IMG/VR virus record: IMGVR_UViG_3300044726_000065
Location: 1 to 42,969 of that record
Origin: a virus
Length of the DNA: 42,969 nt
Reading direction: 5' to 3' (one strand)
The translations under genes and the position numbers were made by a program. Shown piece after piece: positions 1 through 22,697 of the stretch. Positions within the stretch are counted from its first letter, which is position 1. Each line of letters begins with the position of its first letter. Under the pieces are notes generated by a model. It was given only the letters and a program-made list of their open reading frames with translations, ran no database searches and was not told where the DNA came from.

Positions 1-127
1 TCTTTGGTGTGCCTTGTAGAACTCACTATAAGCCCAATTCTTTGTCGGGTTTGTAGTATAGAGAATCTTAGGGATTAAGTTGTATTCGGTCAGTTTGTAC
101 CTTATCCTGACCTTTAGAATATCCTTT
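1..127. repeat. Terminal direct repeat, copy 1; identical to 42843..42969 (overlap of a circularly closed contig)
   Basis: Bases 1..127 (tctttggtgtgccttgtagaactcac...tagaatatccttt) reappear exactly at 42843..42969. Collapsing them gives a 42,842-bp circle and restores one continuous terL frame. Confidence 0.95.
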
Positions 128-558
128 GCCTTACTGACCACCTGTGAACACTCATCAATGTAAGCATCTGATATTTCAAGTGAGCCTAATTCATCAAAGT
201 CCGGATCGCTCGGATAACTAAACAAATCTCTTAGGAATATCAAAGAACCGTTATAAATCTCAATGCAGTTTGGGTTCTCTTTATCTTGTGGGGTAGTCAA
301 ATCAAAATGCTTACCCCTTTTTAAATCCTGCCTTTCTGCAACTTCGAAAAACGTTTTTAATGTTGTTTCTCTTAGTGTTACCATGTGTGCCCTGCCGATA
401 AATCCCCTTGTACCCGGAAACTTCAATCTTCTCTTTAACTGCCAGTAACAACCCAAAGTTGTTTTCCCCGGCCCTGCTGCCCCACCAAAAAGAACCTCCT
501 CTGTTGTGCCATCTTCTAAAAAATCAAGAGCTTCGGTTTGTTTGAAATTAAGTTCCAC
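1..558 (-). CDS. terL: Terminase large subunit, N-terminal ATPase part (gene crosses the circular junction and continues at 42078..42969)
   Basis: The minus frame is open from GTG at 558..556 (overlaps the terS stop as TAGTG) to the window edge. Translation VELNFKQTEALDFLEDGTTEEVLFGGAAGPGKTTLGCYW has Walker A GAAGPGKT, and AYIDE is Walker B-like. The frame matches ORF 42078..42836 after removing the 127-bp duplication (about 440 aa in total). Confidence 0.85.
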   Translation of the reverse strand, partial: MELNFKQTEALDFLEDGTTEEVLFGGAAGPGKTTLGCYWQLKRRLKFPGTRGFIGRAHMVTLRETTLKTFFEVAERQDLKRGKHFDLTTPQDKENPNCIEIYNGSLIFLRDLFSYPSDPDFDELGSLEISDAYIDECSQVVSKAKDILKVRIRYKLTEYNLIPKILYTTNPTKNWAYSEFYKAHQR

Positions 559-1022
559 TATTTAGTTTCGTATTTCTTAACCTCATTCCATGCTATACCA
601 ACACTCCCAGCTAAGTTTAAATCCTGTTTATCACTTAAACCTAAATCCCTTGCTATAATATTGGCATTTAAAAAACCCGCTGCCGATCCGGTAAATTTCT
701 GATTATAAACAGTTTCCTCAATTTTATCTATGACCGTTAAAAAATCTTCATTTGCTGTCCTTTTAAACTGCCTAAAATAACCTATTGAACAATCTAAGTA
801 AGAACATAACCCGTGTAAAGTAAATGCCCTCATCTTGGGTAACTCTATTTGCTGCAATTCTTTGTCAACCGTCTTAAAATCTATTTCAATCAACGGATTA
901 TCTTCGCACCATTGAAAATATTCACAAGCTGCTTCCCACATTAACTGAGGCGTTTCAAAGAGCTTGTCCCTACCATGTTTAGACCTTAACTCCCAAAATC
1001 TATTTCCCTCTGGTGCTGCCAT
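558..1022 (-). CDS. terS: Terminase small subunit (putative)
   Basis: A 154-aa ORF lies immediately upstream of terL and is translationally coupled to it. From memory, the N-terminus GNRFWELRSKHGRDKLFETPQLMWEAACEYFQWCEDNPL resembles a motif recurrent in phage small terminase/DNA-packaging proteins. This was not searched. Confidence 0.65.
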   Translation of the reverse strand: MAAPEGNRFWELRSKHGRDKLFETPQLMWEAACEYFQWCEDNPLIEIDFKTVDKELQQIELPKMRAFTLHGLCSYLDCSIGYFRQFKRTANEDFLTVIDKIEETVYNQKFTGSAAGFLNANIIARDLGLSDKQDLNLAGSVGIAWNEVKKYETK

Positions 1023-1168
1023 GTTTCACATTAGTCCATAAATGACAATGCCCCTACAATAGTAGAGGCGTTAATATTAGCGATCGGATACCCGTTTGCT
1101 TTCAATATTTTCATTTGCCAATAAGGATTTAATCCCTATGGACAATAAAGTTAAATGTCTGAACCGGT

Positions 1169-1284: not shown

Positions 1285-1569
1285 CTAAGTTGTAGGAGCA
1301 TCTGCAACAATATCATCTACTCCTTGTACTTCTGCTTTCAAAGCATCAAAAGCCTCTTGTACTTCAGGAGTGACATCGTCTGCCGCATCAAGAGCAGCGC
1401 CGAGATCCTCAATCTTTTTAATAATTTCAGCTTTTGCTTTTGCTGTTTGGTCTTTTAATGCTGTTAATTGTTGCGCCAGTTCTGATTGTTCCATTTTAAT
1501 TTGTTTTAGAATATGAATAATTTTATGTTCGTTTTCATAGTGATTGTGTATGTGAACATGAATTTGCAT
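1285..1569 (-). CDS. Hypothetical protein, His-rich N-terminus plus coiled coil
   Basis: 94-aa ORF. HVHIHNHYENEH is followed by an Ala/Lys/Glu-rich helical region. An alternative ATG at 1494 would remove the His-rich part. Confidence 0.5.
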   Translation of the reverse strand: MQIHVHIHNHYENEHKIIHILKQIKMEQSELAQQLTALKDQTAKAKAEIIKKIEDLGAALDAADDVTPEVQEAFDALKAEVQGVDDIVADAPTT

Positions 1570-1674: not shown

Positions 1675-2334
1675 CTAATATTCATACTTGCTCTTTTGCG
1701 GGTAAAGTTCATTTAATAAATTCATCATCTGCATCCGCATCCCGTTTGGCCCGGTTGAAAAGAAAGTCCTGTCCTTTATTCTGTCCTCAATCGCCATCTT
1801 TGACATTGGATGATTTATTTTGCAGTCGGTAATTTCTTCCCCTTCTGAATCAACGAACGCTGCGCTTTTGATAATGTATTCATGGCTGCCCCATTCCAAT
1901 CGAAAAACCCTGTGTATCTGGTGGTTGGTAAATACGCATGGAAAATGCGTATCAAAATACCTAACATCTCCAAAGTGGTCGATAGTGTTTCTAATTGCTG
2001 TATAATACTTTCCCGTTGCATTGTTGAGAGCTTCTTTGAGTGTCCCGTGATACCAGTTTTTGATTTCATTTATGTGAAGTGGTTTTAAAAGGAAATGATC
2101 ATCATTGAACATTATAAACTTATCGTCTTTTACCTGGAATAGTTTTGAAATGATGTTTAACTGCTTTCTACTTGAAACATCCGAGTGATAAATGATTTTA
2201 CCTCTGTACCAATCAGGAGTTTTATCAGTAATTAAAAACACTTCCTCGTATCCTGTCAGGTATTTTTCAATAGACCTTAGGCAGAATTTTAATTCATCTC
2301 CTTGTGTGTGTTTATAGGGAATAAATATTATCAT
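1675..2334 (-). CDS. Putative GT-A-like glycosyltransferase (family not identified)
   Basis: 219 aa with N-terminal beta-strand IIFIPYK and a DxD-like FNDDHF. It is the first gene of the sugar-modification cluster. The assignment rests on weak motifs only. Confidence 0.4.
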   Translation of the reverse strand: MIIFIPYKHTQGDELKFCLRSIEKYLTGYEEVFLITDKTPDWYRGKIIYHSDVSSRKQLNIISKLFQVKDDKFIMFNDDHFLLKPLHINEIKNWYHGTLKEALNNATGKYYTAIRNTIDHFGDVRYFDTHFPCVFTNHQIHRVFRLEWGSHEYIIKSAAFVDSEGEEITDCKINHPMSKMAIEDRIKDRTFFSTGPNGMRMQMMNLLNELYPQKSKYEY

Positions 2335-2585
2335 TCGGTTGTTATTAACTGATGCCTTTTTATAACGGTTGTTTTGCCTGTTGATACTGTTTTTTCATAC
2401 TCCGTTCTGCCTTCGCAATTACTCCAATAAATAAAATCCCCTGCATCTCTAAACCGATACATTTTACATCCATCCTTTTCAAAAATTAGTTCAATTGTAA
2501 AATCTCCATCTTTGGTACTTTCCTTTGCGTCACCCTTACAGGCCGATATAAAACAAGCAACAATAAAAATGATTATATATTTCAT
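2331..2585 (-). CDS. Small lipoprotein
   Basis: 84 aa with signal peptide and lipobox MKYIIIFIVACFISAC-KGD. A 4-nt overlap with the downstream gene suggests coupling. Confidence 0.55.
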   Translation of the reverse strand: MKYIIIFIVACFISACKGDAKESTKDGDFTIELIFEKDGCKMYRFRDAGDFIYWSNCEGRTEYEKTVSTGKTTVIKRHQLITTE

Positions 2586-2588
2586 AAA

Positions 2589-3383
2589 TTATAAATTTTC
2601 ATAAATCATGTTTGCTACTGCTGAATAAGTGTAAAAGTCTTTAAAGATTTCTTTACCCAATTCTGGCATTGGGTTATAGTTTCCTATAAAATGATTTAAA
2701 TAGAAATTAATATCTGAATCCAATGCCTTAACACACCCTTCATTAAATAAAAATTCATCACTTATATAAACCGGAACCGCCCCATATTGTAAAGCCTCCT
2801 GAATCCTAAAACTTGTTTTACCGTAACCTCTTGGGCATAAGACGAATTTACTCATTGACATTATCTTGCAGTAACTCTCTAAACTCGTTCTTTCTGTGCT
2901 GATAAAATATCCGTCTTTATCTTTTAATTCCTTAACTAATCTTTCTCTTATCGGATGAGTGATTGCCCCAATGAACGAAGCAAATATTGGCCTTCCACAT
3001 TCTTTGAACTCGTACTTATGAGGCTGGCAAACTAAAGGTAGTTGAACATCTCCTTTACAACCCATGCCGAAAATCTTTACATCGGCTCCGTGCATATTGA
3101 AAAGAACTCCGTCATCGTGCTGGCAAAGAATTGCGTATTTTTTTTTCTTATCTAAGTTCTGAAAATACTCATCAACCTTTCTTCCTGTTCTTCTGTTCCT
3201 TATTAGTTTGTTTAATTCTGTCGTGAGGATAGGAAGAAATATCCGGTCTGATTTGTTTCGTGATGGATCGTAGTTATCTAAAAACCACTCTTCAAACGGA
3301 ATTTCGTTGTCAGGCGGGTAGTGTTTAGTTTCCCTCGGACGAAGGAAGTCTGTATTTTGTAATGTTATCATGCGTATTCCCAT
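2589..3383 (-). CDS. Exostosin-like (GT47 family) glycosyltransferase
   Basis: The C-terminal region [16 protein letters not shown]...[33 protein letters not shown] matches the conserved exostosin-domain pattern (C-P-R-G...S-x-R-x-x-E-A-L-x-x-G-x-x-P-V). Confidence 0.7.
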
Positions 3384-3949
3384 TTAAACCCGTAAGCTGT
3401 ATTTATTTTTCCCTTCGCACACTTGCAAATATTAGGTCTATTAAAACCAAGCTCCCTTTGAACATCATTAATACAATCCCATTTTCTTATAAAGTTACCC
3501 GTTGAATCCTTTTGTATAATAGAAATTGCTGTTGGGCTTTCCTTGCCAACTTGTTTTAAATAGAAATAATCTGGAGCTTTTTTTGACCCTATTTTATAAG
3601 CGTGAAGTATGTTTTCTGATTGCGTACACCACTCTAAATTTTCAACATTATTATTTGATGGGTTGCCGTCAATGTGATTTATAAATGGTTTGCTTTCTGT
3701 GTTGTCTATAAAAGCAATAGCGACTAATCTATGAACTGGGAAGAACTTGCCAAAGCCATACTTATGCAAACACACCTTACAATACCCTGTTTTACCCGGC
3801 TTTGCAGAAATCAACTTGCCCTTTCTGTGTATGGTTATATTATTTCTGATAGGTGATTTGACTTCCCTTCTCACCGATCTAATATTACCAAAATTACTGA
3901 CCTGATAAAAGCCCTCGTAATCTTTAACGTCTTTCCATGTTTCTATCAT
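3368..3949 (-). CDS. HNH homing endonuclease (NUMOD4 + HNH_3 type)
   Basis: NUMOD4-like [24 protein letters not shown] core [29 protein letters not shown]-terminal [19 protein letters not shown] module. Free-standing between two sugar-modification genes. Confidence 0.85.
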
Positions 3950-4560
3950 AATAGTGTTTTTCTAATGTATAACGCATCCCCGAAACCTTTCCTTTTCCAC
4001 TTCGTTTCAACCCTTCTAAAATCTGTTAGGTAATTATCCAAGTCCTCAACCATTGCACAATTCTCGTAAAGCTCTTCCCTGTTTACTTCGGTATAGATGT
4101 AATCAATGTGCTTTAATGTTTCGGTTGCGCCTTTTAATACTTCATGCTCGTAGCCTTGCACATCAAGCATTAAAAAGTTGCAGTTAGTTAATGCGACATT
4201 GTCCAACATAATCATCAATGCCCTTTCTACATCTTTAAATTCTATATCTGGGTAGTATAATAAATGTTGCTTTGGTTTAAGTATTGAATTACTTTGCCCG
4301 TTATTTTTTGTTTCTACATTAAGATAAGCCTCAGTACAAGATGCCCCTAACGCAAAGTTGTGTGTGTATATTCTATCAAAATCCCAAGACTTACTTAATA
4401 GTTTTTCATAACTATCCTCACATGGTTCAAACAAATGCAATTCGCCATCCGTTACACTTAACAATAAATCAACCTCCTCTCCCCAATGCGCACCAGCTTG
4501 GATAACTCCAGTTATCTTCATTCCATATTTAGCAATTAACTTTTCTAACTTAAGGAGCAT
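3946..4560 (-). CDS. FkbM-family SAM-dependent methyltransferase
   Basis: 204 aa. [11 protein letters not shown] (SAM loop-like) and [17 protein letters not shown] match the Methyltransf_21/FkbM pattern. Confidence 0.7.
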
Positions 4561-4565
4561 ATATT

Positions 4566-5150
4566 TTATTTATAGTAACTGTGATCATTTAATGGCTCAT
4601 GGATGAACGCTATCTTATCCTCGTATAAATCAAAAGGGAAATTAAAATAAAGGCTTTTGTACTTGGACGTAATTGGATCGTTTGCCTTTTGTAACATTGC
4701 AAGCATTGTGCTATTATACCACATATCCTGTCTATAAAATGCCTCAGTATTACATTGTAAATCTTCCACAACATAAAGTTTTGTAGACCCCACAAGCCCG
4801 TAATAGGTCATTAACTGATGCCTTGAATTATGACTTCCGTCATCTACTATAAAGTCAAACGGCCCGAATAATCTAACATTATCAAGCACCTTACTATCGG
4901 CCTGATTTCCCCTGAAAGCAGTAAACCAATTTTCCTTTATAGGTTCATGTTCGGAAAAAAGGTCTATCCCAAAGATGTGAGCCTCTGGATAAACTTCATG
5001 CCACATCTTTATACTTTCAGAACGGTGAACACCAATTTCTAATATCTTATTTACTGATTCCGGCAAGTGTTTAGCGTAGTATTTCGCATAGCCATGATCG
5101 TTTTTATCAGTATCATATTTTGGCATTATGTCTATAATTCTTTCAACCAT
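4566..5150 (-). CDS. Class I methyltransferase-like protein (sugar O-methyltransferase/CmcI-like pattern)
   Basis: YDTDKNDHGYAKYY...ILEIGVHRSESIKMW...IFGIDL...FDFIVDDGSH...YVVEDL follows the family pattern. The glycine-rich SAM loop is degenerate (GVHRSES). Confidence 0.6.
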   Translation of the reverse strand: MVERIIDIMPKYDTDKNDHGYAKYYAKHLPESVNKILEIGVHRSESIKMWHEVYPEAHIFGIDLFSEHEPIKENWFTAFRGNQADSKVLDNVRLFGPFDFIVDDGSHNSRHQLMTYYGLVGSTKLYVVEDLQCNTEAFYRQDMWYNSTMLAMLQKANDPITSKYKSLYFNFPFDLYEDKIAFIHEPLNDHSYYK

Positions 5151-5701
5151 AAATTTAATTCTAACATTATAGGTTTACAATATTCGTCAACTGCTTTTTT
5201 TACTCCTTTGAATGTGTCGTAGTCGTGACCAAGTAAAGCCCCTCCTGGTCGGATTAATTTTGAATAGTGTTCTATTTCCCATTTAACCATGTCGTAAGTA
5301 TGTAGACCATCAAGGAAAACAAAATCAACCATTTCTTCATCCCATGTTTCTTTTCTTTCCGATAAATAATAATACCCGTCTTTACTATCTAAATATAGAT
5401 GTTCAAAAGCCCTAAACTTATATAGTCTATTGTAGGTCTGTTTTTTTAGCCTATCATAATCATCTTGGTCAAATAGCCCCGGCATATCAGGATAATACTT
5501 GTAAGGATCAACACAAATCAGTTTTTCTAAATTGCATTCAGTTAGTAAATGATTCGCACAACCACCGTAAGCAGTTCCAATCTCTATCCCGGTTTTATAC
5601 CCTTTTGAGTTTATGTAGTTTGATAGTTGCCAGTAGTAACAATGAAGTCCTACGGCAGTATCTTCGCCCATCATTCTCGTTAAGTCTTCGTCTGTTCTCA
5701 T
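5132..5701 (-). CDS. Class I SAM-dependent methyltransferase (Methyltransf_24-like)
   Basis: GIEIGTAYGGCANHLL (motif I) plus VDFVFLDGLHTYDMV and IRPGGALLGHDY. Confidence 0.7.
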   Translation of the reverse strand: MRTDEDLTRMMGEDTAVGLHCYYWQLSNYINSKGYKTGIEIGTAYGGCANHLLTECNLEKLICVDPYKYYPDMPGLFDQDDYDRLKKQTYNRLYKFRAFEHLYLDSKDGYYYLSERKETWDEEMVDFVFLDGLHTYDMVKWEIEHYSKLIRPGGALLGHDYDTFKGVKKAVDEYCKPIMLELNLWLKEL

Positions 5702-6012
5702 TTGCCGCCTTTTTTAATTGATTGAATCCATGCCTTTGTTGGGTTGTAATAAAAAACCTTTGTTGCCCAAAATACTTGCCCTCTTTTAAATTCCTTGCCC
5801 TCAAAATTAAATCCTAAACAAATGCCTATGTCTGGATTTATTATAAAACCTCTTATAATCGAATCCCTGTTTTTCATTTGTTCAATATCTGATTTCATAT
5901 CATCACTAATACTAATTAAGACAACTTCATTTGGTTGCAAATATCCGTATTCGGCAATTTCGTTATTTGTGAGTGTAACCACATCGTAATTATATTTTAC
6001 AACCTCATTCAT
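5698..6012 (-). CDS. Hypothetical protein
   Basis: 104-aa ORF tightly packed between a methyltransferase and the fucosyltransferase gene. No motif recognised. Confidence 0.5.
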   Translation of the reverse strand: MNEVVKYNYDVVTLTNNEIAEYGYLQPNEVVLISISDDMKSDIEQMKNRDSIIRGFIINPDIGICLGFNFEGKEFKRGQVFWATKVFYYNPTKAWIQSIKKGGK

Positions 6013-6013
6013 A

Positions 6014-6757
6014 TTAAAACATTATTTGTGCCCATTGTTTAGGAATTAATTCGCCTGTAAAAATGTGCTGGTTATCTTTCCCGTACCACTTTGAATGATG
6101 CGGCGCAATTACATTATCACTTCCTGAAAGATACGCCGCCGTCCATGAATAAGTGCTATTTGCTATCACATGAAATTTATAAGTTGTCATTCTCAACCAT
6201 GTTTCAAGTGGGTCACCCCCTATTATAAATTCGTCCATATTGCCAACGAAACTCTTAGAAACATCTTCATCGGAAAACACATGACAAGGTAAAGGGCATT
6301 CTTTAAAGTGCCACTTTTCATAATACTCTTTCGGAAGCATAGGCCACTTAGTCGGATACTTCGCATAGTCACCCCTTCTTACATGAACGCAAACAGCATC
6401 TATTTTTTCTTTCGGTAAATTAAATGCTTCAATCAACTCTTTTCTATACTCATCAAAGTAATTAATATTTTGATACCAACCGTGCAAACGCATATTCTTT
6501 CCGGTAAAAGGTAGTGGTTCATAAGTCCACCCGTCTTGCCTGTGTTCAACTTCAATCTTTGCTTCATCTTCAGGAGTAAGTAACGGAAAAAAATCAAAAG
6601 GGGTTTGCTTTGTGTACTTGGATCTGTTGTAAGATGGAATTTTATACTCTACTCCATTGCGCCAAGCATGGGAAATAGCCGTCATTATCTGCATACAATT
6701 ATTGCCCAGCCTTCCGCTTAACGCAACTGTTATAAATGGTTTTAAATGTGGCTCCAT
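6014..6757 (-). CDS. Alpha-1,2-fucosyltransferase (GT11 family)
   Basis: GT11 signature motifs are present: LSGRLGNNCMQ (N-terminal), VCVHVRRGDY (HxRRGDY) and HVIANSTYSWTAAYL (SNSTFSWW-like). Confidence 0.85.
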   Translation of the reverse strand: MEPHLKPFITVALSGRLGNNCMQIMTAISHAWRNGVEYKIPSYNRSKYTKQTPFDFFPLLTPEDEAKIEVEHRQDGWTYEPLPFTGKNMRLHGWYQNINYFDEYRKELIEAFNLPKEKIDAVCVHVRRGDYAKYPTKWPMLPKEYYEKWHFKECPLPCHVFSDEDVSKSFVGNMDEFIIGGDPLETWLRMTTYKFHVIANSTYSWTAAYLSGSDNVIAPHHSKWYGKDNQHIFTGELIPKQWAQIMF

Positions 6758-7272
6758 ACTCTTCTGTGTAAAATATCTTTTATGTGGGTTAGACTTAAAT
6801 TAAATTCTTTAGCAAGTTTCCAGCAGCCGTATTTACCCGGAATATATTTGCTCCTTATTTTTAATACTATTTCATTTGTAAGTTTTGCTTTGGGGTGATT
6901 TTCTCCTTTGTTGTCTTGTAGCCCTATAACAAATGAATGCTTTGAGTTTTCAGAATGCGTACACCATTCAAGATTCTCAAGCCTATTGTCAATCTTATTA
7001 CCATTTTTATGATTTATACACCTGTAGTTGTTTGGATTTGGTAGAAACGCTAAAGCAATTAGCCTATGAAGTGTTTTTGTTGTGCCGCCTATGCTTATTG
7101 AGGCATAGCCACACCCATCTGTATGACCCAGTATAAAAATTCTGTCTTTCCTTATTGCGTCTGTTCCGTATCTGGTCTTGTATTTTTTGCCAATAGATTT
7201 TATTCTCCCAAAATTGCTTACTAGATAACAAGATTCGTATCCGGGGATATTTTTCCAAATTTCTGTATTCAT
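6742..7272 (-). CDS. HNH homing endonuclease (NUMOD4 + HNH_3 type)
   Basis: WKNIPGYESCYLVSNFGRIKS and INHKNGNKIDNRLENLEWCTHSENSKH. The start is taken at ATG 7272 (MNTEIWK). The tracked 208-aa ORF carries an implausible N-terminal extension. Confidence 0.85.
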   Translation of the reverse strand: MNTEIWKNIPGYESCYLVSNFGRIKSIGKKYKTRYGTDAIRKDRIFILGHTDGCGYASISIGGTTKTLHRLIALAFLPNPNNYRCINHKNGNKIDNRLENLEWCTHSENSKHSFVIGLQDNKGENHPKAKLTNEIVLKIRSKYIPGKYGCWKLAKEFNLSLTHIKDILHRRVWSHI

Positions 7273-7401
7273 AAAAACATTACGCCCCAATGCAGAAGAC
7301 TTATCGCCGCTACCATGAGGGAGGAACGCAACTACACCGGGGCTTAAAGTTTGAAGTAATTTTAGCATGATAAGACGATAAGTAATGCTAATATAGTAAA
7401 C

Positions 7402-8133
7402 TTATTTTAATAAACGAATTTTTTCTTGCAGCTCGTTTGCTTTTTTCATGTTGTATTTATGACAGCCGTTTAGCCAACCGCTTCCAGAATGTTTACGATG
7501 ATGATAACGCATTCCAGGTACAACGTAAAAAGCATTTCCCGCTTCTAACCACAAAGTATTGAAATAAATAGTATCGCTTTCCTTAATTGATTCATCGTAC
7601 TTGTAAACCCTTAAATATTCATCACGGTTCACAACGTAATTACAATTATTCAATAAGCATCTAAACTCTGCCTTGTGCAAAAAATCCTTTGCGTTACTGC
7701 TGTCTATTATCATTCCGTTCCATCGTGAGTAATCGTGTTCCGGTTCTGCTAAAGATGGGTGAAGAATGAAATTCTTTCCAAGCTGGCTTTTACTAAAATT
7801 GAAGTTAATGGCTATCGCTTCCAAATACTCAAGGTAAAGTTCGTTGTCTGAATCAAATAAAATAACCCATTCGTTTTTAGCCTTACTTATTGCTTCACGT
7901 TTATTCCGTAACATCCCCAAATTCTCTTTGTTTTTATGTACCCTTATTTTCCATTCAATCTTACCTTGCTGAAATTTAGAAAGTATTAATAGTAGTTCGG
8001 TATATTTTTCTTCGTTACTCGCATCGTCAACAATTAAGATCTCATCAATTAAAGGATGGTCATAAACCTTTTCAAAGACTTCCAGAACCATGTCTGACCT
8101 GTTGTAAGTTGTTATCGCTAAAGTTAGTTTCAT
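7402..8133 (-). CDS. Family 2 glycosyltransferase (GT2, GT-A fold)
   Basis: LTLAITTYNRSDMV...ILIVDDASNEE...ILFDSDNE are the classic GT2 N-terminal motifs, including DxD. Confidence 0.8.
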   Translation of the reverse strand: MKLTLAITTYNRSDMVLEVFEKVYDHPLIDEILIVDDASNEEKYTELLLILSKFQQGKIEWKIRVHKNKENLGMLRNKREAISKAKNEWVILFDSDNELYLEYLEAIAINFNFSKSQLGKNFILHPSLAEPEHDYSRWNGMIIDSSNAKDFLHKAEFRCLLNNCNYVVNRDEYLRVYKYDESIKESDTIYFNTLWLEAGNAFYVVPGMRYHHRKHSGSGWLNGCHKYNMKKANELQEKIRLLK

Positions 8134-8312
8134 AATATATTTGGATTTGCAAATTCACCATGATATTTTATCGCTGCTTCATTATATGCTTTAGCTGCAT
8201 CAATTTCATCTTTATATCTACCTAAAAATATTTGTTTCCCGTTAAACCTTATACAAGCCTTAAACCTTTCTCCGCTTCTCCAAACTCCTAAATATTTTGC
8301 AACCTCTATCAT
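8130..8312 (-). CDS. Stand-alone AP2/ERF-type DNA-binding domain protein
   Basis: 60 aa. YLGVWRSGERFKACIRFNGKQIFLGRYKDEIDAAKAYNEAAIKYHGEFA matches the AP2 domain pattern that in phages is usually fused to HNH endonucleases. Confidence 0.75.
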   Translation of the reverse strand: MIEVAKYLGVWRSGERFKACIRFNGKQIFLGRYKDEIDAAKAYNEAAIKYHGEFANPNIL

Positions 8313-8340: not shown

Positions 8341-8973
8341 TTAAATCTGTCCGTTATATTTTGTTTTTAAATATTCAGCCATCGCATTGTGATTAAGTTC
8401 TTTTTCCCTATCCTGGTTTTCGCTCCATCTTGTAGGATCACCGCTTGCCTTGTTGTTAATGTGAATTTCTTCTTTTATTTTTATAATCTCATCACATCTT
8501 TCATCACGGTATTTATCAAACATTTCCATAACCGAAGGAATGTCTAAACGATTATAAACAACTCCCATTTTTCCAGTAGCCAACCTTTGAAGGAAAATAA
8601 AAACGTCCTGAATTGAAAGCGTATCTGTTTCTGATTCGTCAATTATTTGATCTGCTAATAAAAAAATCTGCTCAATAGTTAATGAGTTTGACAAGTTAAA
8701 AAACTTCATGGTATATTCTATCTGTGCAATAATTAAACTATGAACATAACGTTTATCTTGCTTCGCTAAAGCTGGTATTCTGTCGGATGTCGGAATCTTT
8801 GCCAGCATTAAAAAGTCAAGCCCTGCGCCTGTCTGAAACGTTTTAAGCAGGGTTTTTACCAGTTGCTGATCCCCCGCTTCCATAGCGTTCATTAAGCATC
8901 CCGTCATATTGTTGGCCTCTTTCTTTAGAGCCATAATCTTGTTGTTTTCCGTTTTTTGCAGTTGGTTTGCCAT
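8341..8973 (-). CDS. Hypothetical protein (replication-module neighbour)
   Basis: 210 aa from ATG 8973 (the tracked TTG start is at 8982). Helical-looking sequence. Overlaps the upstream DUF1376 ORF by 131 nt in another frame. Confidence 0.5.
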   Translation of the reverse strand: MANQLQKTENNKIMALKKEANNMTGCLMNAMEAGDQQLVKTLLKTFQTGAGLDFLMLAKIPTSDRIPALAKQDKRYVHSLIIAQIEYTMKFFNLSNSLTIEQIFLLADQIIDESETDTLSIQDVFIFLQRLATGKMGVVYNRLDIPSVMEMFDKYRDERCDEIIKIKEEIHINNKASGDPTRWSENQDREKELNHNAMAEYLKTKYNGQI

Positions 8974-19026: not shown

Positions 19027-19054
19027 ACCGCTTCCGTCTTAAAAAATAAAAATG
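19024..19054 (+). repeat. 31-nt intergenic/gene-start repeat, copy 1 (taaaccgcttccgtcttaaaaaataaaaatg)
   Basis: Identical to 19312..19342. Ends in the ATG of the downstream gene. Confidence 0.9.
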
Positions 19055-19330
19055 AGTACAGAAACCTATACGAGAAAAATATTATCAGGCAAGGGATGGG
19101 TTATAAAAAGTTTTGAATATGAAAAGCCTAAGTCCGGGTTTAAATGTATTGAAGGTGGATATTTTTGTGAACTTGTTTCAGATGAAAATGATTACGATAT
19201 ACTTGAAAACATCCCGTTCGACAACAATGTATTTGGCAGTATTTCAGGAAGTGGGTTAATCATGGCGTTATACAAAAAAGATTTTATACAACTTATTAAT
19301 AAAATTCCAAATAAACCGCTTCCGTCTTAA
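19052..19330 (+). CDS. Hypothetical protein
   Basis: 92-aa ORF. Its last 6 codons (NKPLPS) are encoded by copy 2 of the 31-nt repeat. Confidence 0.55.
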   Translation: MSTETYTRKILSGKGWVIKSFEYEKPKSGFKCIEGGYFCELVSDENDYDILENIPFDNNVFGSISGSGLIMALYKKDFIQLINKIPNKPLPS

Positions 19331-19342
19331 AAAATAAAAATG
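19312..19342 (+). repeat. 31-nt gene-start repeat, copy 2
   Basis: Exact duplicate of 19024..19054. A 14-nt partial copy (accgcttccgtctt) lies at 19642..19655. Confidence 0.9.
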
Positions 19343-19639
19343 TTAACCATGAGTAAGGAAATACAAGAAGGCCGCCAAGCGGTTGAAATAAAAGATGAAA
19401 GGGATTATGCTATTCGTAAAGGGAAAGTTCTTGAAAGATTCACTCAAGAGTTTTATAACAGGCATAAGCATAATGCGCTTTATAGGCAAGTGTATGAAAT
19501 GCTAATAAGAGATGCTGACCCGTATGAGTTGATTGAGAAGTTGATTGAAATAAATGCAAATCAATTCGAGTATATCCAAGAAATTGTGCCATACGTTTCA
19601 CCAAATTATTATCTCAACAAAAACCAACAAAACACTTAA
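19340..19639 (+). CDS. Hypothetical protein
   Basis: 99-aa ORF starting at the ATG of repeat copy 2. Confidence 0.55.
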   Translation: MLTMSKEIQEGRQAVEIKDERDYAIRKGKVLERFTQEFYNRHKHNALYRQVYEMLIRDADPYELIEKLIEINANQFEYIQEIVPYVSPNYYLNKNQQNT

Positions 19640-20775: not shown

Positions 20776-21192
20776 ATGTCAACTATACCGAAAGAGATAA
20801 TGGAGATTTGGATGCCGCTAATTGGTTTTGAGGGGTTATATAAAGTAAGCGATTTCGGCAGCCTTACTGCTTTAGAGAAAACGGCAAAAGGATGGGGCAG
20901 CGAATATATTAGACCTGAACAGCCTATTAGTTGCAGCACTAACGGGGACGGGTATAGGCAAGCCACGATAACTGGCAAGGATGGCATAAAGAAAACGAAA
21001 TATGTGCATAGGATGGTAGCTGAAACTTTTATTCCTAACCCAGATAATAAGCCGTGTATTAACCACAAAGACGGCAACAAAAATAATAACCATGTAGAAA
21101 ATCTTGAATGGGTTACGGTTGCCGAGAACAACGAACACGCAATTAAAACAGGTCTTAATAAACGTAAAAGAAAAAAGCATGAAAACGCATGA
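20776..21192 (+). CDS. HNH homing endonuclease (NUMOD4 + HNH_3 type)
   Basis: IGFEGLYKVSDFGSL and INHKDGNKNNNHVENLEWVTVAENNEHA. Confidence 0.85.
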   Translation: MSTIPKEIMEIWMPLIGFEGLYKVSDFGSLTALEKTAKGWGSEYIRPEQPISCSTNGDGYRQATITGKDGIKKTKYVHRMVAETFIPNPDNKPCINHKDGNKNNNHVENLEWVTVAENNEHAIKTGLNKRKRKKHENA

Positions 21193-22181: not shown

Positions 22182-22392
22182 CTTTCATAGATTTTAAAGT
22201 TGCTATGGCTCCGAAAATTCCACCCACGATAACTTTTAAAAGGTCTAACAAAGCCGTCCTGACCGCAACCGCCCCTTCTGTTGGATTAGCTGACCCCTTA
22301 AAGATAATGCCGCCTACCCCTATTAAAATGCTTACAGCGACACTAAAGGCAAGCATTAATAAAACCCACTCCCCTGCATTGAATTTTTTCAT
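22159..22392 (-). CDS. Holin-like small membrane protein
   Basis: 77 aa with two hydrophobic helices (WVLLMLAFSVAVSILIGVGGIIF; IVGGIFGAIATL). Overlaps the endolysin start. Confidence 0.5.
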   Translation of the reverse strand: MKKFNAGEWVLLMLAFSVAVSILIGVGGIIFKGSANPTEGAVAVRTALLDLLKVIVGGIFGAIATLKSMKDDNSKGV

Positions 22393-22406
22393 TTAGTAAA
22401 TATAAT

Positions 22407-22451
22407 AAAAAATGACAAAGCCCCGAACCGATTGACGTTATTCGAGGCTTT
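22407..22451 (-). terminator. Intrinsic terminator of the tmRNA-like gene
   Basis: On the minus strand AAAGCCUCGAA-(13 nt)-UUCGGGGCUUU forms 11 bp with one G:U, followed by GUCAUUUUUUAUUAU. Confidence 0.65.
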
Positions 22452-22680
22452 GAGAATTAGGCGGCTGCTCTCTGAGCAACGGGCTGATTCATTTTTATGA
22501 CTTTTGCGTCATTTATATTTAACAATTTCCTCTTGCAAGAATGTAATCTGCTGTCAAAACCAAACATCCCCACCGGAGTTACCCGGCTCAAATGGAAATT
22601 AAACCCGGTGGAGATGACCGGAATCGAACCGGTGTCCAACTGATACTACTCAAACAAGTCTTTATCGGAAAGAGCTTGCA
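22417..22680 (-). ncRNA. ssrA: Circularly permuted (two-piece type) tmRNA-like gene: acceptor piece, intervening loop, then coding piece
   Basis: Read 5' to 3' on the minus strand:
- GGAC followed by T-arm ACCGG-TTCGATT-CCGGT (22633..22617).
- Acceptor 3' strand CATCTCC, then A, then CC (22616..22607).
- A spacer of about 35 nt.
- GGGGATGTTTGGTTTTGACAGC (from 22571), a tmRNA 5' consensus that pairs with CATCTCC with G3:U.
- P2a-like pairing of CAGCAGATTAC (22553..22543) with GTAGTATCAGTTG (22649..22637).
- GCA (22507..22505) opens a frame AKVIKMNQPVAQRAAA ending at TAA 22459..22457.
- An 11-bp terminator hairpin follows. Confidence 0.75.
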
Positions 22681-22681
22681 T

Positions 22682-22697
22682 CAAATATACAAAATTA
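22682..22697 (-). promoter_or_regulatory. Tandem Bacteroidota -7 boxes (TAATTTTG, TATATTTG) upstream of the tmRNA-like gene
   Basis: The minus strand reads ggaTAATTTTGTATATTTGatgcaagc. Both octamers fit TAnnTTTG. They lie just after the stop of the upstream spanin-like gene. Confidence 0.5.

What the first reader, a model, noticed from the sequence alone, without database searches (positions are those of the whole stretch)
1675..8133. 6.5-kb sugar-modification island: four glycosyltransferases and three methyltransferases without precursor or export genes
Consecutive minus-strand genes encode:
- a GT-A-like protein;
- a GT47 exostosin-like enzyme, a family that is mostly eukaryotic;
- an FkbM methyltransferase;
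- two class I methyltransferases;
- a GT11 alpha-1,2-fucosyltransferase (HVRRGDY and NSTYSW motifs);
- a GT2 enzyme.

There is no nucleotide-sugar synthesis gene, no initiating phosphoglycosyl transferase, and no Wzx/Wzy or ABC exporter. The enzymes must therefore decorate an existing acceptor.

Candidate acceptors are the host capsule/LPS (surface conversion or superinfection exclusion), virion proteins (capsid/tail glycosylation with O-methylated sugars has been described for some mycobacteriophages), or phage DNA. This is a large share (about 15 percent) of a 43-kb genome to devote to glycan chemistry. The methyltransferase at 4566..5150 has a degenerate SAM loop.
Basis: partly seen in the sequence, partly recalled or inferred. 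Interest (0 to 1): 0.7.

Follow-up and report, generated by a model that had tools for sequence, protein, structure and literature searches.

The report
Phage sugar-coating gene cassette
A 43-kb virus of Bacteroidota bacteria carries seven soluble enzymes that together should build a small methylated sugar chain, most likely on the virus's own particle; the set is a shuffled module shared by many uncultured phages and is anchored by an unusually small 'Stealth' enzyme that also sits, unannotated, in well-studied mycobacteriophages.

Summary
Window 1675-8133 (minus strand) encodes seven verified sugar-chemistry enzymes: GT2, GT11, a TylF/CmcI-type methyltransferase, a MycE/TylE-type sugar O-methyltransferase, an FkbM methyltransferase, a GT47/exostosin-like enzyme, and a 219-aa protein that is a minimal Stealth-family (sugar-1-phosphate transferase) homologue.

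The genes are not strictly consecutive. Two free-standing HNH homing endonucleases, a lipoprotein and an unknown ORF are interspersed.

The window is a complete circular 42,842-bp siphophage genome. It has no integrase, no hydroxymethylase or dioxygenase, no membrane enzyme and no exporter.

The same seven-enzyme order recurs in at least five other contigs (45-91% aa identity), with terminases swapped independently. Relatives carry variant cassettes, some with NDP-sugar synthesis genes.

The mini-Stealth is the constant element. It belongs to a family of more than 1,000 50%-identity clusters, occurs fused to GT11/GT7 domains, almost always lies beside packaging or structural genes, and is present in cluster K mycobacteriophages (Fionnbharth gp6).

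Best reading (about 0.45): cytoplasmic glycosylation of virion proteins, possibly primed by sugar-phosphate transfer. Host-envelope remodelling remains a real rival; DNA glycosylation is unlikely. This is a new variant of a known kind.

The parts
7402..8133 (-). GT2 family glycosyltransferase (243 aa, GT-A, DDA and DSD motifs); first gene of the cassette
   Evidence: PF00535 at 59.8 bits against gathering cutoff (GA) 23.3. Weak NCBIfam matches to EPS/PglI-type GT2 enzymes. Orthologues at 61-69% identity in the same position in L016, L017, L074, L078 and L079. No tblastn hit in GenBank phages.
6742..7368 (-). Free-standing NUMOD4-HNH homing endonuclease (HNH2); a mobile passenger, not a glyco-enzyme
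   Evidence: PF07463 and PF13392 above cutoff; phrog_59 E 7e-48. It is 99.5% identical to the L016 copy, while the flanking GT2 and GT11 are 68.5% and 82% identical. It is absent from L017 and L079.
6014..6757 (-). GT11 family (alpha-1,2-fucosyltransferase-type) glycosyltransferase, 247 aa
   Evidence: PF01531 at 36 bits against GA 23.9; phrog_2644 E 7e-24. HVRRGDY and NSTYSW are in the translation. The nearest named phage homologues are cyanomyovirus GT11 genes at about 30% identity.
5698..6012 (-). orf104, unknown; not conserved in related cassettes
   Evidence: No Pfam, PHROG or NCBIfam hit. No homologue covering more than 50% of the protein in any fetched locus.
5132..5701 (-). Class I SAM methyltransferase of the Methyltransf_24 (TylF/CmcI-like) type, 189 aa
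   Evidence: PF13578 at 48.2 bits against GA 26.3, plus a weak rhamnosyl-O-MT/CmcI hit. 78-83% identical across the cassettes.
4566..5150 (-).
   Evidence: No Pfam hit; phrog_21658 E 2e-18. Family profile A3 matches MycE 3ssm at E 6e-28, TylE 8ia9 at E 2e-26 and CmcI at E 2e-6. The loop is EIGVHRSES here against the family pattern EIGVxxGxS; the DDGSH motif is conserved. Homologues occur in mycobacteriophages Wildcat, Omega and McProf.
3946..4560 (-). FkbM-family methyltransferase, 204 aa
   Evidence: PF05050 at 49.7 bits against GA 22.7; TIGR01444 at 45.6 bits against cutoff 37.7; phrog_8156. Some relatives carry FkbM fused to the GT47-like domain (P0117, P0130).
3368..3949 (-). Free-standing NUMOD4-HNH homing endonuclease (HNH1); a mobile passenger
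   Evidence: PF07463 and PF13392; phrog_59 E 2e-48. Present in L016 (78% identity), absent from L017, L074, L078 and L079 at this position.
2589..3383 (-). Short GT47/exostosin-like glycosyltransferase, 264 aa
   Evidence: PF03016 at 49.5 bits against GA 33.4, and RXYLT1_C. AF2 model pLDDT 93. Foldseek top matches are EXT1/EXT2 (E 9e-8), then chlorovirus A075L (E 4e-5). 208 homologues, of which the best 120 listed all lie on contigs of 77 kb or less.
2331..2585 (-). Small lipoprotein-like ORF (signal peptide plus Cys; sub-threshold DUF4884); a passenger specific to this phage
   Evidence: DUF4884 at 27.1 bits, below GA 30. It is the only ORF in the block with an N-terminal signal-like hydrophobic stretch, MKYIIIFIVACFISAC; at 1.53 it scores only slightly above FkbM's internal 1.45. 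Not found in the related cassettes.
1675..2334 (-). Minimal (219 aa) Stealth-family protein, a candidate sugar-1-phosphate transferase; the one element conserved across all cassette variants of this phage group
   Evidence: Stealth_CR2 at 35 bits, below GA 39.4. Family profile A1 against PDB sequences: GNPTAB E 6e-10, CpsY E 2e-7. AF2 pLDDT 96.8. Foldseek top hits are CpsY and GNPTAB. hhalign against canonical Stealth proteins: probability 99.8%, E 5e-28, spanning CR1-CR4. Invariant residues: D78, D79, H130, P132, K64, D170, K172, S193.
1285..1569 (-). orf94, a small His-rich coiled-coil protein that travels with the cassette; function unknown
   Evidence: Orthologues lie directly after the mini-Stealth in L016 (99% identity), L018 (83%), L078/L079 (68%) and L001 (60%). 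Only weak coiled-coil Pfam hits.
1035..1150 (-). Conserved structured non-coding element that marks the boundary between the cassette and the packaging genes
   Evidence: 77-97% DNA identity in relatives whose flanking genes are far more diverged. The alignment and consensus fold have 7 pairs with compensatory changes. A terminator-like hairpin lies at 1069-1050 and another at 1234-1207. No Rfam family matches.
558..1022 (-). Small terminase subunit (context: the start of the packaging/structural gene row directly downstream)
   Evidence: PF16677 GP3_package E 1e-29; phrog_606. TerL spans the circular junction.

Best explanation
**What it is.** The block is a modular, phage-borne glycan-assembly cassette.

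**Components.**
- Seven soluble cytoplasmic enzymes.
- One minimal Stealth-type transferase.
- Three glycosyltransferases (GT47-like, GT11 and GT2).
- Three methyltransferases from families that O-methylate sugars (FkbM, MycE/TylE-type, TylF/CmcI-type).

**Proposed action.** They would use host nucleotide sugars and SAM to build a short oligosaccharide on an acceptor already present in the infected cell. The oligosaccharide would be partly O-methylated and probably contain fucose or another 6-deoxyhexose.

**Proposed acceptor.** The most likely acceptor is the phage's own virion proteins (HK97-fold capsid and/or tail tube), modified in the cytoplasm before lysis. This is what mycobacteriophages Che8/Corndog and chloroviruses do.

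**Proposed order of steps.** I propose that the conserved mini-Stealth performs the acceptor-specific first step. That step is possibly transfer of a sugar-1-phosphate onto a hydroxyl. The variable GT/MT set then extends and caps the glycan, giving different phages different surface glycans.

**Shown:**
- the enzyme families and folds;
- soluble nature of the enzymes;
- modular conservation of the cassette;
- fusion of mini-Stealth to GT11/GT7 domains;
- position next to packaging and structural genes.

**Inferred:**
- the chemistry of each step;
- the order of the steps;
- the identity of the acceptor.
For: 1. All seven enzymes are verified. None has a membrane segment.

2. The three MT families have sugar O-methylating members. 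MycE and TylE are the best matches for 4566-5150.

3. The same seven-gene order occurs in L016, L017, L074, L078 and L079 at 45-91% aa identity. Meanwhile TerL is exchanged independently:
   - L020 has TerL at 91% identity but a different cassette.
   - L074 has TerL at 33% identity but the same cassette.

4. Variant cassettes keep the mini-Stealth and change the rest:
   - L077 adds DegT, FdtA and a second GT2.
   - L019 has a GT11+GT7C+MT fusion plus an NDP-sugar dehydratase/epimerase.
   - L007, L020 and L076 have other MTs.

5. The mini-Stealth occurs fused to GT11 and GT7C domains (P0191, P0278, P0311). It therefore works in the same pathway as the GTs.

6. The mini-Stealth or its fusions lie next to or inside morphogenesis genes in independent lineages:
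   - upstream of TerS/TerL here and in L006-L009, L012, L018-L020, L074, L077 and L085;
   - between head and tail genes in L083, L084 and L022;
   - at the left end before the terminase in mycobacteriophage Fionnbharth, as gp6. In the cluster K phage Adephagia the late transcript runs through cos into that left arm (PMC11373665).

7. The enzymes belong to phage-resident lineages rather than recent host captures:
   - Full-length mini-Stealth was found in only 3 MAG contigs among the 52 confirmed loci of a pattern-based scan of the 185,579-species genome collection (at most 80 loci are returned).
   - The best 120 GT47-like hits listed are all on contigs of 77 kb or less.

8. There are precedents:
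   - Chlorovirus capsid glycans are built in the cytoplasm by virus-encoded multidomain GT/MT proteins (PMC7826918).
   - A075L, crystallised with UDP-xylose and a trisaccharide acceptor (PDB titles), is the closest small solved relative of the GT47-like fold here. That it is a chlorovirus PBCV-1 capsid-glycan enzyme is my own knowledge; the paper read did not mention it.

9. There is no integrase-sized ORF, so a lysogenic-conversion role is not available to this phage.
Against: - No direct evidence shows that any virion protein is glycosylated.
- No Ser/Thr-rich extension marks an obvious acceptor. The only hints are a 24% Ser+Thr tail tube and conserved C-terminal Ser residues.
- Characterised Stealth enzymes act on glycans (mannose of N-glycans, glucan, capsule chains), not on protein side chains (PMC10668966, PMC1285062).
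- The Bacteroidota-phage clade has Lys (41 of 42 sequences) where canonical Stealth proteins have Arg. In CpsY the R419K change abolishes activity. The CR4 CLND motif is replaced. Phosphotransferase chemistry is therefore not assured.
- Terminator-like hairpins separate the cassette from TerS, so co-transcription with late genes is not shown.
- In Gordonia phage OneUp the homologue lies among replication genes.
- The region upstream of the terminase is a common site for accessory genes in general.
- In temperate L019 the cassette is also near the integrase.
Confidence: 0.45

Rival explanations
1. Host-envelope remodelling. The soluble enzymes act at the inner face of the membrane on host undecaprenyl-linked LPS, capsule or O-glycan intermediates. 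Host flippases and ligases then export the altered glycan. This would mask the receptor, giving superinfection exclusion or preventing progeny from sticking to debris.
For: - The nearest annotated relatives of GT2, GT11 and canonical Stealth proteins work in EPS, LPS and capsule synthesis.
- Similar GT clusters in cyanophages are usually read as cell-wall modification genes (PMC12801897).
- The phage appears to recognise a surface polysaccharide: its tail protein 25559-28198 has an SGNH/GDSL esterase domain.
- Some relatives carry NDP-sugar synthesis genes.
- In temperate L019 the cassette lies a few genes from the integrase.
- A lipoprotein gene sits inside the block.
Against: - From my own knowledge, known serotype-converting phage modules rely on integral-membrane enzymes (GtrA/B/type-specific Gtr, Oac, Wzy variants). 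None is present here.
- This phage has no integrase.
- The mini-Stealth family is shared by phages of Bacteroidota, Mycobacterium, Gordonia and Microbacterium, whose envelopes have little in common.
- The enzymes have almost no close cellular homologues.
- The lipoprotein is not conserved with the cassette.
Confidence: 0.3
2. Another acceptor. The glycan, or just a sugar phosphate, is put on a small molecule, lipid, RNA or host protein, for example as an anti-defence or host-takeover function. The mini-Stealth would be the key effector and the rest would tailor the product.
For: - In Fionnbharth the mini-Stealth (gp6) is next to a gene with an Acb2/Tad1 hairpin domain. From my own knowledge this is an anti-CBASS/anti-Thoeris sponge fold (E 2e-21).
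- In several phages the mini-Stealth occurs with no recognisable GT nearby (Fionnbharth, OneUp, L075).
- In OneUp it lies among nucleotide-metabolism and replication genes.
Against: - Adjacency to one anti-defence gene is weak evidence.
- Fusion to GT11 and GT7 domains, and the multi-GT/multi-MT cassettes, point to oligosaccharide building rather than a single small-molecule reaction.
- The location is predominantly in morphogenesis regions.
Confidence: 0.15
3. DNA hypermodification. The glycosyltransferases decorate phage DNA bases with a methylated glycan to block restriction.
For: - Phage GTs that glycosylate 5hmC/5hmU DNA with varied glycans are known, and some lie near terminase and methyltransferase genes (bioRxiv 10.1101/2023.12.21.572611).
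- DNA methyltransferase genes lie just upstream of related cassettes in L020, L021, L076, L079 and L080.
Against: - The complete genome has no thymidylate-synthase-type hydroxymethylase, no 5mYOX/TET dioxygenase and no C5-MT. No hydroxylated base would therefore be available.
- The three MTs belong to sugar/natural-product O-MT families.
- The GT families here (GT11, GT47, Stealth) are not those reported for DNA glycosylation; 'Stealth' has 0 occurrences in that paper.
Confidence: 0.04

Closest known systems
Mycobacteriophage virion-glycosylation operons (Che8, Corndog, Myrna; Freeman et al. 2023, as cited in PMC11600133, PMC11256854 and PMC12363180)
   Same: - Siphophage-encoded tandem glycosyltransferases plus an O-methyltransferase.
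- No export or precursor genes.
- They act in the cytoplasm on capsid and tail-tube subunits.
- A MycE-type MT homologous to 4566-5150 occurs in mycobacteriophages. In an M. abscessus prophage it lies beside a GT directly upstream of TerS/TerL.
   Different: - The host phylum differs (Bacteroidota here).
- There are seven enzymes rather than three or four.
- GT2, GT11 and GT47 have no tblastn match in actinophages.
- A Stealth-type enzyme is part of this cassette. I found none mentioned in the papers read about those operons; the primary paper (Freeman et al. 2023) could not be read.
- Glycosylation of the virion is unproven here.
Chlorovirus PBCV-1 capsid-glycan machinery (A064R, A111/114R, A075L)
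   Same: - Virus-encoded soluble GTs and a sugar O-methyltransferase build a fucose- and methyl-rhamnose-containing glycan on the major capsid protein in the cytoplasm.
- Multidomain GT-GT-MT fusions exist there (PMC7826918), as they do in relatives of this cassette (L019, P0191).
- A075L is a roughly 280-aa exostosin-like enzyme and the closest small solved fold to the GT47-like protein here.
   Different: - It is a giant eukaryotic virus.
- The glycans are N-linked.
- The sequence relation is remote (profile E 0.25; Foldseek E 4e-5).
- I know of no Stealth enzyme in that pathway; the paper was not searched for the term.
Stealth family: GNPTAB (GlcNAc-1-phosphotransferase), M. tuberculosis CpsY, and meningococcal capsule polymerases (the last from my own knowledge)
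   Same: - CR2 with the ELxYxLRS and NDD motifs, the CR3 H-x-P motif and the C-terminal S-x-(F/Y/W)-E motif are shared.
- The best sequence and fold matches are in this family.
   Different: - The protein is only 219 aa, with no spacer segments or accessory domains.
- CR4 CLND is replaced by FFSTG.
- The CR3 Arg that is essential in CpsY is Lys in this clade, although Arg is kept in Fionnbharth gp6.
- The Pfam score is below the gathering cutoff.
- The family is phage-borne and sits next to morphogenesis genes.
Cyanomyovirus glycosyltransferase clusters (GT11, GT25, GT2 and others in P-SSM2, S-SM2, S-SCSM2R)
   Same: - They hold the closest named phage homologues of the GT11 (about 30% identity) and of the GT47-like gene (S-SKS1, 32%).
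- They are clusters of several GTs with unknown acceptors in lytic phages (PMC12801897).
   Different: - They occur in large T4-like myoviruses.
- No mini-Stealth was found there: the tblastn search of the window protein found nothing in GenBank phages.
- Their gene order and genomic setting differ.
Serotype-converting prophage modules (GtrABC, O-acetyltransferases, Wzy variants); description from my own knowledge
   Same: They are phage genes that alter a surface glycan without encoding precursor synthesis.
   Different: - Those systems use integral-membrane enzymes acting at the periplasmic face.
- They sit next to int/attP in temperate phages.
- Here all enzymes are soluble and there is no integrase.

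Membership tests
Stealth (PF11380; CR1-CR4 hexose-1-phosphate transferases) | CR2, about 100 residues, with the ELRYSLRS-type helix and the N-D-D metal/sugar-binding motif | tested here: met
   - Residues 10-90 match Stealth_CR2 (E 2e-8, though 35 bits is below gathering cutoff (GA) 39.4).
- The family profile hits GNPTAB and CpsY CR2 at E 6e-10 to 2e-7.
- D78 and D79 are invariant, and E14 is conserved in 38 of 42 sequences.
Stealth (PF11380; CR1-CR4 hexose-1-phosphate transferases) | CR1 motif IDVVYTF at the N-terminus | tested here: inconclusive
   hhalign pairs M-(d)I-v-I-P-Y with the canonical ID-V-V-x-T-W strand. The strand is kept but the motif is not. Fionnbharth gp6 has MDVIYPV.
Stealth (PF11380; CR1-CR4 hexose-1-phosphate transferases) | CR3 with H-x-P and the phosphate-binding Arg (CpsY R419; R419K is inactive, PMC10668966) | tested here: inconclusive
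   H130 and P132 are invariant. The aligned FRS Arg position is Lys in 41 of 42 family members and Arg in 1, and it is Arg in Fionnbharth gp6. Equating this position with R419 rests on alignment and spacing, not on a structure superposition.
Stealth (PF11380; CR1-CR4 hexose-1-phosphate transferases) | CR4 tetrapeptide CLND/CIND | tested here: not met
   Replaced by F-F-S-T-G (S193 invariant). Only the distal S-x-(Y/W/F)-E motif is shared.
Stealth (PF11380; CR1-CR4 hexose-1-phosphate transferases) | Stealth catalytic fold | tested here: met
   The AF2 model has pLDDT 96.8. The top 13 PDB matches are all CpsY or GNPTAB (E 4e-10 to 8e-7), followed by GT6/GT8 GT-A enzymes. In BFVD, Megaviridae 'Stealth protein' entries rank 3-4.
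Stealth (PF11380; CR1-CR4 hexose-1-phosphate transferases) | Transfers sugar-1-phosphate (releases UMP), not sugar | not testable with these tools
   Needs an enzyme assay.
GT47 / exostosin | Pfam PF03016 above the gathering score, and a GT-B fold closest to EXT GT47 domains | tested here: met
   49.5 bits against GA 33.4. Profile against PDB: EXT1 at E 5e-6. Foldseek top 12 are all EXT1/EXT2.
GT11 (alpha-1,2-fucosyltransferase family) | PF01531 above the gathering score, and the HxRRxD(Y) GDP-fucose motif | tested here: met
   36 bits against GA 23.9. HVRRGDY is in the translation. Donor and linkage specificity were not tested.
GT2 | PF00535 above the gathering score, and DxD | tested here: met
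   59.8 bits against GA 23.3. VDDA and DSD are in the translation.
FkbM methyltransferases | PF05050 and TIGR01444 above their cutoffs | tested here: met
MycE/TylE-type sugar O-methyltransferases | Catalytic domain with the E-x-G-V...G-x-S SAM loop and the DDxSH motif | tested here: met
   The profile matches MycE at E 6e-28 over residues 5-134. DDGSH is conserved. The loop glycine is Ser in this phage and in L016. The N-terminal tetramerisation domain of MycE (residues 1-180) is absent.
Phage virion-glycosylation systems (Che8/Corndog type) | Phage-encoded GTs plus an O-MT, without export genes | tested here: met
Phage virion-glycosylation systems (Che8/Corndog type) | Glycans demonstrated on capsid or tail-tube subunits | not testable with these tools
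   Needs mass spectrometry of virions.
Phage virion-glycosylation systems (Che8/Corndog type) | Sequence homology of the GTs to the actinophage GTs | tested here: not met
   tblastn of GT2, GT11 and GT47 against 50,697 phage records gave no actinophage hit. Only the MycE-type MT has mycobacteriophage homologues.
Serotype-converting prophage modules | Integral-membrane modifying enzymes, and a temperate phage with an integrase | tested here: not met
   No hydrophobic segment in any enzyme. No integrase-sized unassigned ORF.
Phage DNA glycosylation pathways | A hydroxymethyl-pyrimidine-generating enzyme (ThyS homologue, or C5-MT plus 5mYOX) in the genome | tested here: not met
   None was found among the ORFs scanned. 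The ORFs left unscanned are all 110 aa or shorter.

The most novel reading that the evidence does not exclude
Phages have their own, very widespread glycosylation initiator. This is a minimal roughly 220-aa Stealth enzyme with more than 1,000 50%-identity clusters. It is found in phages of Bacteroidota and of Actinobacteria, including cluster K mycobacteriophages. It would attach a sugar-1-phosphate directly to Ser/Thr of capsid or tail proteins. To my knowledge such phosphoglycosylation has so far been described only in protists such as Dictyostelium and Leishmania. Swappable GT/MT cassettes would then elaborate the primer into strain-specific, O-methylated, fucosylated glycan coats.
Probability: 0.2. 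Interest if true: 0.85.

Novelty: new variant of a known kind. Interest (0 to 1): 0.6.

Why it matters
Virion glycosylation by phage-encoded enzymes has been shown experimentally only in a few actinobacteriophages and, among large viruses, in chloroviruses. If this cassette does the same, three things follow:

- Glycan coats on tailed phages would extend to Bacteroidota phages.
- The coats would be built from exchangeable modules, which is relevant to phage antigenicity, mucus and particle interactions, and phage therapy.
- A function would be assigned to a very large family of 'hypothetical' proteins. That family includes Fionnbharth gp6, in a phage group that is genetically tractable and used therapeutically.

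The mini-Stealth is also the smallest Stealth catalytic unit I am aware of. It is a compact model for an enzyme family that includes the human lysosomal-targeting enzyme GNPTAB and bacterial capsule polymerases. If the acceptor instead proves to be the host envelope, it would be a membrane-enzyme-free route of surface conversion by a non-integrating phage.

Tried and rejected
- **Close cultured relative.** megablast of 25 kb against GenBank phages found only a 69-bp HNH match.
- **Direct tblastn of the window's proteins against GenBank phages.** The mini-Stealth and the GT2 gave no match. Only divergent family members (P0047, P0050) reached the actinophage homologues.
- **MT paralogy.** I asked whether the MycE-type MT and the Methyltransf_24 gene are recent paralogues. 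hhalign gave probability 1.4%, so this was rejected.
- **Mini-Stealth in an M. abscessus prophage.** I tested the 238-aa gene after the MT in prophiFVLQ01-1. hhalign gave probability 0.2%, so this was rejected.
- **Bacteroidota promoters.** A search for the -33/-7 consensus (TTTG..TAnnTTTG) to time expression found 3 matches against 3.7 expected, which is uninformative. The sigma-70 scan is not applicable to this host type.
- **Single-sequence PDB searches.** GT11 and GT47 found nothing. A profile or a fold search was needed.
- **Rfam for the conserved leader.** Only a chance-level hit, E 0.5.
- **Freeman et al. 2023 (PMC10527164).** The paper is not held. Its findings are cited only through papers that describe them.
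- **Literature search on glycan shields.** One search was swamped by eukaryotic-virus papers.
- **Cassette absence in a relative.** L004 was examined for absence of the mini-Stealth, but the contig ends 1.6 kb upstream of TerL, so nothing can be concluded.
- **Acceptor signature.** Looking for an acceptor signature in structural proteins gave only weak hints: an S/T-rich tube and conserved C-terminal Ser residues.

Full report
**The sequence as a whole**

The window ends in a 127-bp exact terminal overlap. It therefore represents a complete circular assembly of 42,842 bp, and the large terminase gene is restored across the junction.

It is a tailed phage with an HK97-fold capsid. Identified genes include:
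- small terminase, portal, a MuF-like head protein, an S78 protease and a Phage_capsid major capsid protein;
- head-tail connectors, a tail tube, a tape measure and a tail protein with an SGNH/GDSL esterase domain;
- a muramidase.

Almost all genes run on the minus strand, from about 16.9 kb down through the origin and on to 21.6 kb. A short plus-strand block lies at 17.6-21.6 kb.

Several gene types are absent:
- No ORF of integrase size is unassigned.
- No thymidylate-synthase-like hydroxymethylase, TET/5mYOX dioxygenase or C5-methyltransferase was found.
- The ORFs never scanned are all 110 aa or shorter.

The host is probably a member of Bacteroidota. Three observations point that way:
- Only 3 of 46 genes have a Shine-Dalgarno-like motif, and the leaders are A-rich.
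- The only full-length genomic matches to the mini-Stealth are in MAG contigs binned as Ginsengibacter, as Bacteroidota and as an uncultured bacterium.
- One ORF has a sub-threshold DUF4884 match.

No close relative exists among 50,697 GenBank phage records.

**Check of the observation**

Region 1675-8133 holds eleven minus-strand ORFs.

| Gene | Assignment | Evidence |
|---|---|---|
| 7402-8133 | GT2 | PF00535 above the gathering score |
| 6014-6757 | GT11 | PF01531 above the gathering score; HVRRGDY and NSTYSW present |
| 5132-5701 | Methyltransf_24 | PF13578 above the gathering score |
| 3946-4560 | FkbM | PF05050 and TIGR01444 above cutoffs |
| 2589-3383 | GT47-like | PF03016 above the gathering score |
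| 4566-5150 | MycE/TylE-type MT | no Pfam hit; family profile matches MycE and TylE |
| 1675-2334 | minimal Stealth | profile, fold and profile-profile evidence |

For the GT47-like protein, an alignment-based AlphaFold model (pLDDT 93) finds the GT47 domains of human EXT1/EXT2 as its twelve best PDB matches. The chlorovirus exostosin-like enzyme A075L comes next.

For gene 4566-5150, a profile of it and six orthologues matches two solved sugar 2-O-methyltransferases: MycE at E 6e-28 and TylE at E 2e-26. The 'degenerate SAM loop' is that family's own E-x-G-V-x-x-G-x-S loop, with one Gly changed to Ser in this phage and in its closest relative.

The first gene (1675-2334) is more specific than 'GT-A-like'. 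A profile of 42 homologues hits GlcNAc-1-phosphotransferase and CpsY. Its model (pLDDT 96.8) has only Stealth enzymes as its thirteen best PDB matches. A profile-profile alignment with canonical Stealth proteins extracted from bacterial genomes spans CR1 to CR4 (probability 99.8%, E 5e-28).

- two NUMOD4-HNH homing endonucleases;
- a lipoprotein-like ORF;
- an unknown 104-aa ORF.

None of the seven enzymes has a hydrophobic segment. The region is 15.1% of the genome, and the enzymes alone are 10.9%.

**The block is a conserved, mobile module**

The order GT2, GT11, Methyltransf_24, MycE-type MT, FkbM, GT47 and mini-Stealth recurs in IMG/VR, ENA, Logan and NCBI metagenome contigs. These are L016, L017, L074, L078 and L079, plus L018, which is cut. 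Amino-acid identity is 45-91%.

The homing endonucleases come and go:
- L017 and L079 have none.
- HNH2 is 99.5% identical between the window and L016, while its neighbours are 68.5% and 82% identical.

The lipoprotein and orf104 are private to this phage.

The cassette and the terminase recombine independently. L020 has a 91%-identical TerL but a different cassette. L074 has a 33%-identical TerL and the same cassette.

More distant relatives keep the mini-Stealth in the same place and vary the rest:
- L077 adds a DegT aminotransferase, an FdtA isomerase, a second GT2 and an MT fusion.
- L019, which is temperate, has one 700-aa GT11+GT7C+MT protein plus an NDP-sugar dehydratase/epimerase.
- L007, L020 and L076 have other methyltransferases and unknown proteins.
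- A 77-kb contig (L080) has GT2, GT11, the MycE-type MT, FkbM and GT47 but no mini-Stealth.

The lack of precursor genes is therefore a feature of this member, not of the system.

**The mini-Stealth family**

A full HMMER pass over 1.84 billion representative proteins found 1,073 clusters at E of 1e-30 or lower. Almost all of the best 150 are 217-250 aa and match end to end.

Three of the exceptions (P0191, P0278, P0311) are fusions with GT11 and/or GT7C domains; the others (P0198, P0222, P0261) show only Stealth_CR2. The fusions tie the mini-Stealth to the same pathway as the glycosyltransferases.

The window's own protein has no tblastn match in GenBank phages. Divergent family members, however, match 'hypothetical proteins' of cultured actinophages at full length:
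- many Mycobacterium phages, among them Fionnbharth (a cluster K phage) gp6 and Cheetobro;
- Gordonia phages OneUp and Yvonnetastic;
- Microbacterium phages.

The family profile aligns with Fionnbharth gp6 over its whole length (probability 99.4%, E 7e-22).

Motif conservation in the family is as follows:
- D78 and D79 (the NDD motif), H130 and P132 (CR3), K64, D170, K172 and S193 are invariant.
- The CR4 CLND tetrapeptide is not kept.
- The position aligned with the CR3 Arg is Lys in 41 of 42 Bacteroidota-phage members and Arg in Fionnbharth gp6. In CpsY that Arg is R419, and R419K is inactive.

The protein is therefore a divergent, minimal member of the family. Its phosphotransferase chemistry is inferred, not shown.

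**Where the system sits**

Here and in at least a dozen related contigs, the mini-Stealth lies directly upstream of the terminase genes and after replication-type genes.

In other lineages it lies inside the morphogenesis module:
- In L083 a GT11-Stealth fusion lies between head-side genes and tail genes. The same protein also occurs on a contig longer than 1 Mb, which I take to be a prophage.
- In L084 a Stealth-GT7C fusion lies between head and tail blocks.
- In L022 the mini-Stealth lies between the prohead protease and TerL, with another GT-like gene nearby.

In Fionnbharth, gp6 is two genes before the small terminase. In the cluster K phage Adephagia, late transcription runs through cos into that left arm (PMC11373665). 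Extending this to gp6 is an inference.

There are exceptions and cautions:
- In Gordonia phage OneUp the gene is among replication genes.
- In this window, two terminator-like hairpins and a conserved structured element lie between the cassette and TerS.
- Fionnbharth gp5, next to gp6, has an Acb2/Tad1 hairpin domain.

**Interpretation**

The families and their combination indicate stepwise assembly of a short oligosaccharide with O-methylated sugars. The supporting points are:
- four transferases of different folds;
- three methyltransferases from families that include sugar O-methyltransferases;
- a GT11 enzyme;
- NDP-6-deoxy-sugar genes in relatives.

The sugar identities are inferred.

The acceptor cannot be read from sequence. 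I favour virion proteins, with a confidence of about 0.45, for five reasons:
- The only experimentally established function for multi-GT plus O-MT sets without membrane or export components in tailed phages is capsid and tail-tube glycosylation (PMC11600133, PMC12363180). Chloroviruses do the same in the cytoplasm with multidomain GT/MT proteins (PMC7826918).
- The system is tied to morphogenesis genes in unrelated phage lineages.
- It is present in a phage with no integrase.
- The mini-Stealth is shared by phages whose hosts have very different envelopes.
- The enzymes are phage-resident lineages with almost no cellular counterparts.

That the conserved enzyme does the acceptor-specific first step and the variable enzymes make the outer glycan is an inference. 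It rests on the pattern of conservation.

Host-envelope remodelling through undecaprenyl-linked intermediates remains a serious rival (about 0.3). Some other acceptor, including an anti-defence role, is possible (about 0.15). DNA glycosylation is unlikely (about 0.04), because no enzyme that could create a hydroxylated base is present (for what known systems require).

**Comparison with known systems, and novelty**

The cassette works like the mycobacteriophage and chlorovirus virion-glycosylation systems, but it is not their homologue at the GT level. Only the MycE-type MT has mycobacteriophage relatives. One of these sits with a GT directly upstream of TerS/TerL in an M. abscessus prophage.

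I found no paper in the library that links Stealth proteins with phages, or that describes a phage cassette combining exostosin, FkbM and GT11 enzymes. That library omits most subscription journals.

I rate this a new variant of a known kind. It is a large, modular, phage-specific glycan cassette in Bacteroidota siphophages, anchored by a previously unnamed minimal Stealth clade. That clade also exists, unannotated, in model mycobacteriophages, which makes the function directly testable.

Noticed in passing
window 22366-22698 (-): A permuted (two-piece) tmRNA gene lies between a lysis-region gene and the muramidase. Rfam RF04321 scores 55.4 bits against a gathering score of 47 (E 3e-8). ARAGORN calls a permuted tmRNA with tag peptide DAKVIKMNQPVAQRAAA. 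This is unexpected for a phage whose other features point to a Bacteroidota host. From my own knowledge, Bacteroidota have one-piece tmRNA.
   Followed up: partly
window ~1035-1150 (-); also L001 ~1936-2024, L017 ~6916-7040, L007 ~8563-8647, L012 ~3219-3311: A conserved non-coding element of about 115 nt lies directly upstream of TerS (or of TerL in relatives). It is 77-97% identical in DNA where the flanking genes are far more diverged. The consensus fold has two hairpins inside a closing helix, and 7 pairs show compensatory changes. No Rfam family matches. It may be a leader, an antiterminator or a packaging-related structure.
   Followed up: partly
window 38848-40497 (-), residues ~240-506: The MuF-like head protein contains an intein. 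Relatives align only to residues 1-239 and 507-549. The insert starts CFPGDTLV and ends HISN|C. Pfam Intein_splicing scores 36.0 bits against a gathering score of 35.8.
   Followed up: partly
window 3368-3949, 6742-7368 (-) and 20776-21192 (+): The 43-kb genome has three NUMOD4-HNH homing endonuclease genes. HNH2 is 99.5% identical to the L016 copy despite 68-82% identical neighbours, which indicates recent transfer between diverged phages. A 60-aa AP2-domain ORF (8130-8312) abuts GT2.
   Followed up: partly
window 25559-28198 (-): An 879-aa tail protein has an SGNH/GDSL esterase domain (PF13472, 37.3 bits against a gathering score of 32.9). This suggests a receptor-binding protein that de-acylates a host surface polysaccharide.
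   Followed up: no
window 1-127 and 42843-42969: A 127-bp exact terminal overlap shows the window is a circularly closed assembly of 42,842 bp. The large terminase ORF (441 aa) is restored only after the overlap is removed.
   Followed up: yes
L081 (Mycobacterium phage Fionnbharth) 911-1273: gp5, the gene just upstream of the mini-Stealth homologue gp6, carries an Acb2/Tad1 hairpin domain (PF24729, E 2e-21). It is annotated only as a hypothetical protein.
   Followed up: no
window 19052-19330 and 19340-19639 (+): Two adjacent small ORFs (92 and 99 aa) are preceded by the identical 20-nt sequence TTCCGTCTTAAAAAATAAAA. This suggests a tandem duplication.
   Followed up: no
L080 1955-2698: In a 77-kb phage-like contig, a C5 DNA methyltransferase (PF00145) lies directly upstream of a GT2-GT11-...-FkbM-GT47 cassette. 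Two ECF-sigma-like genes follow it. I did not check whether a dioxygenase is nearby.
   Followed up: no
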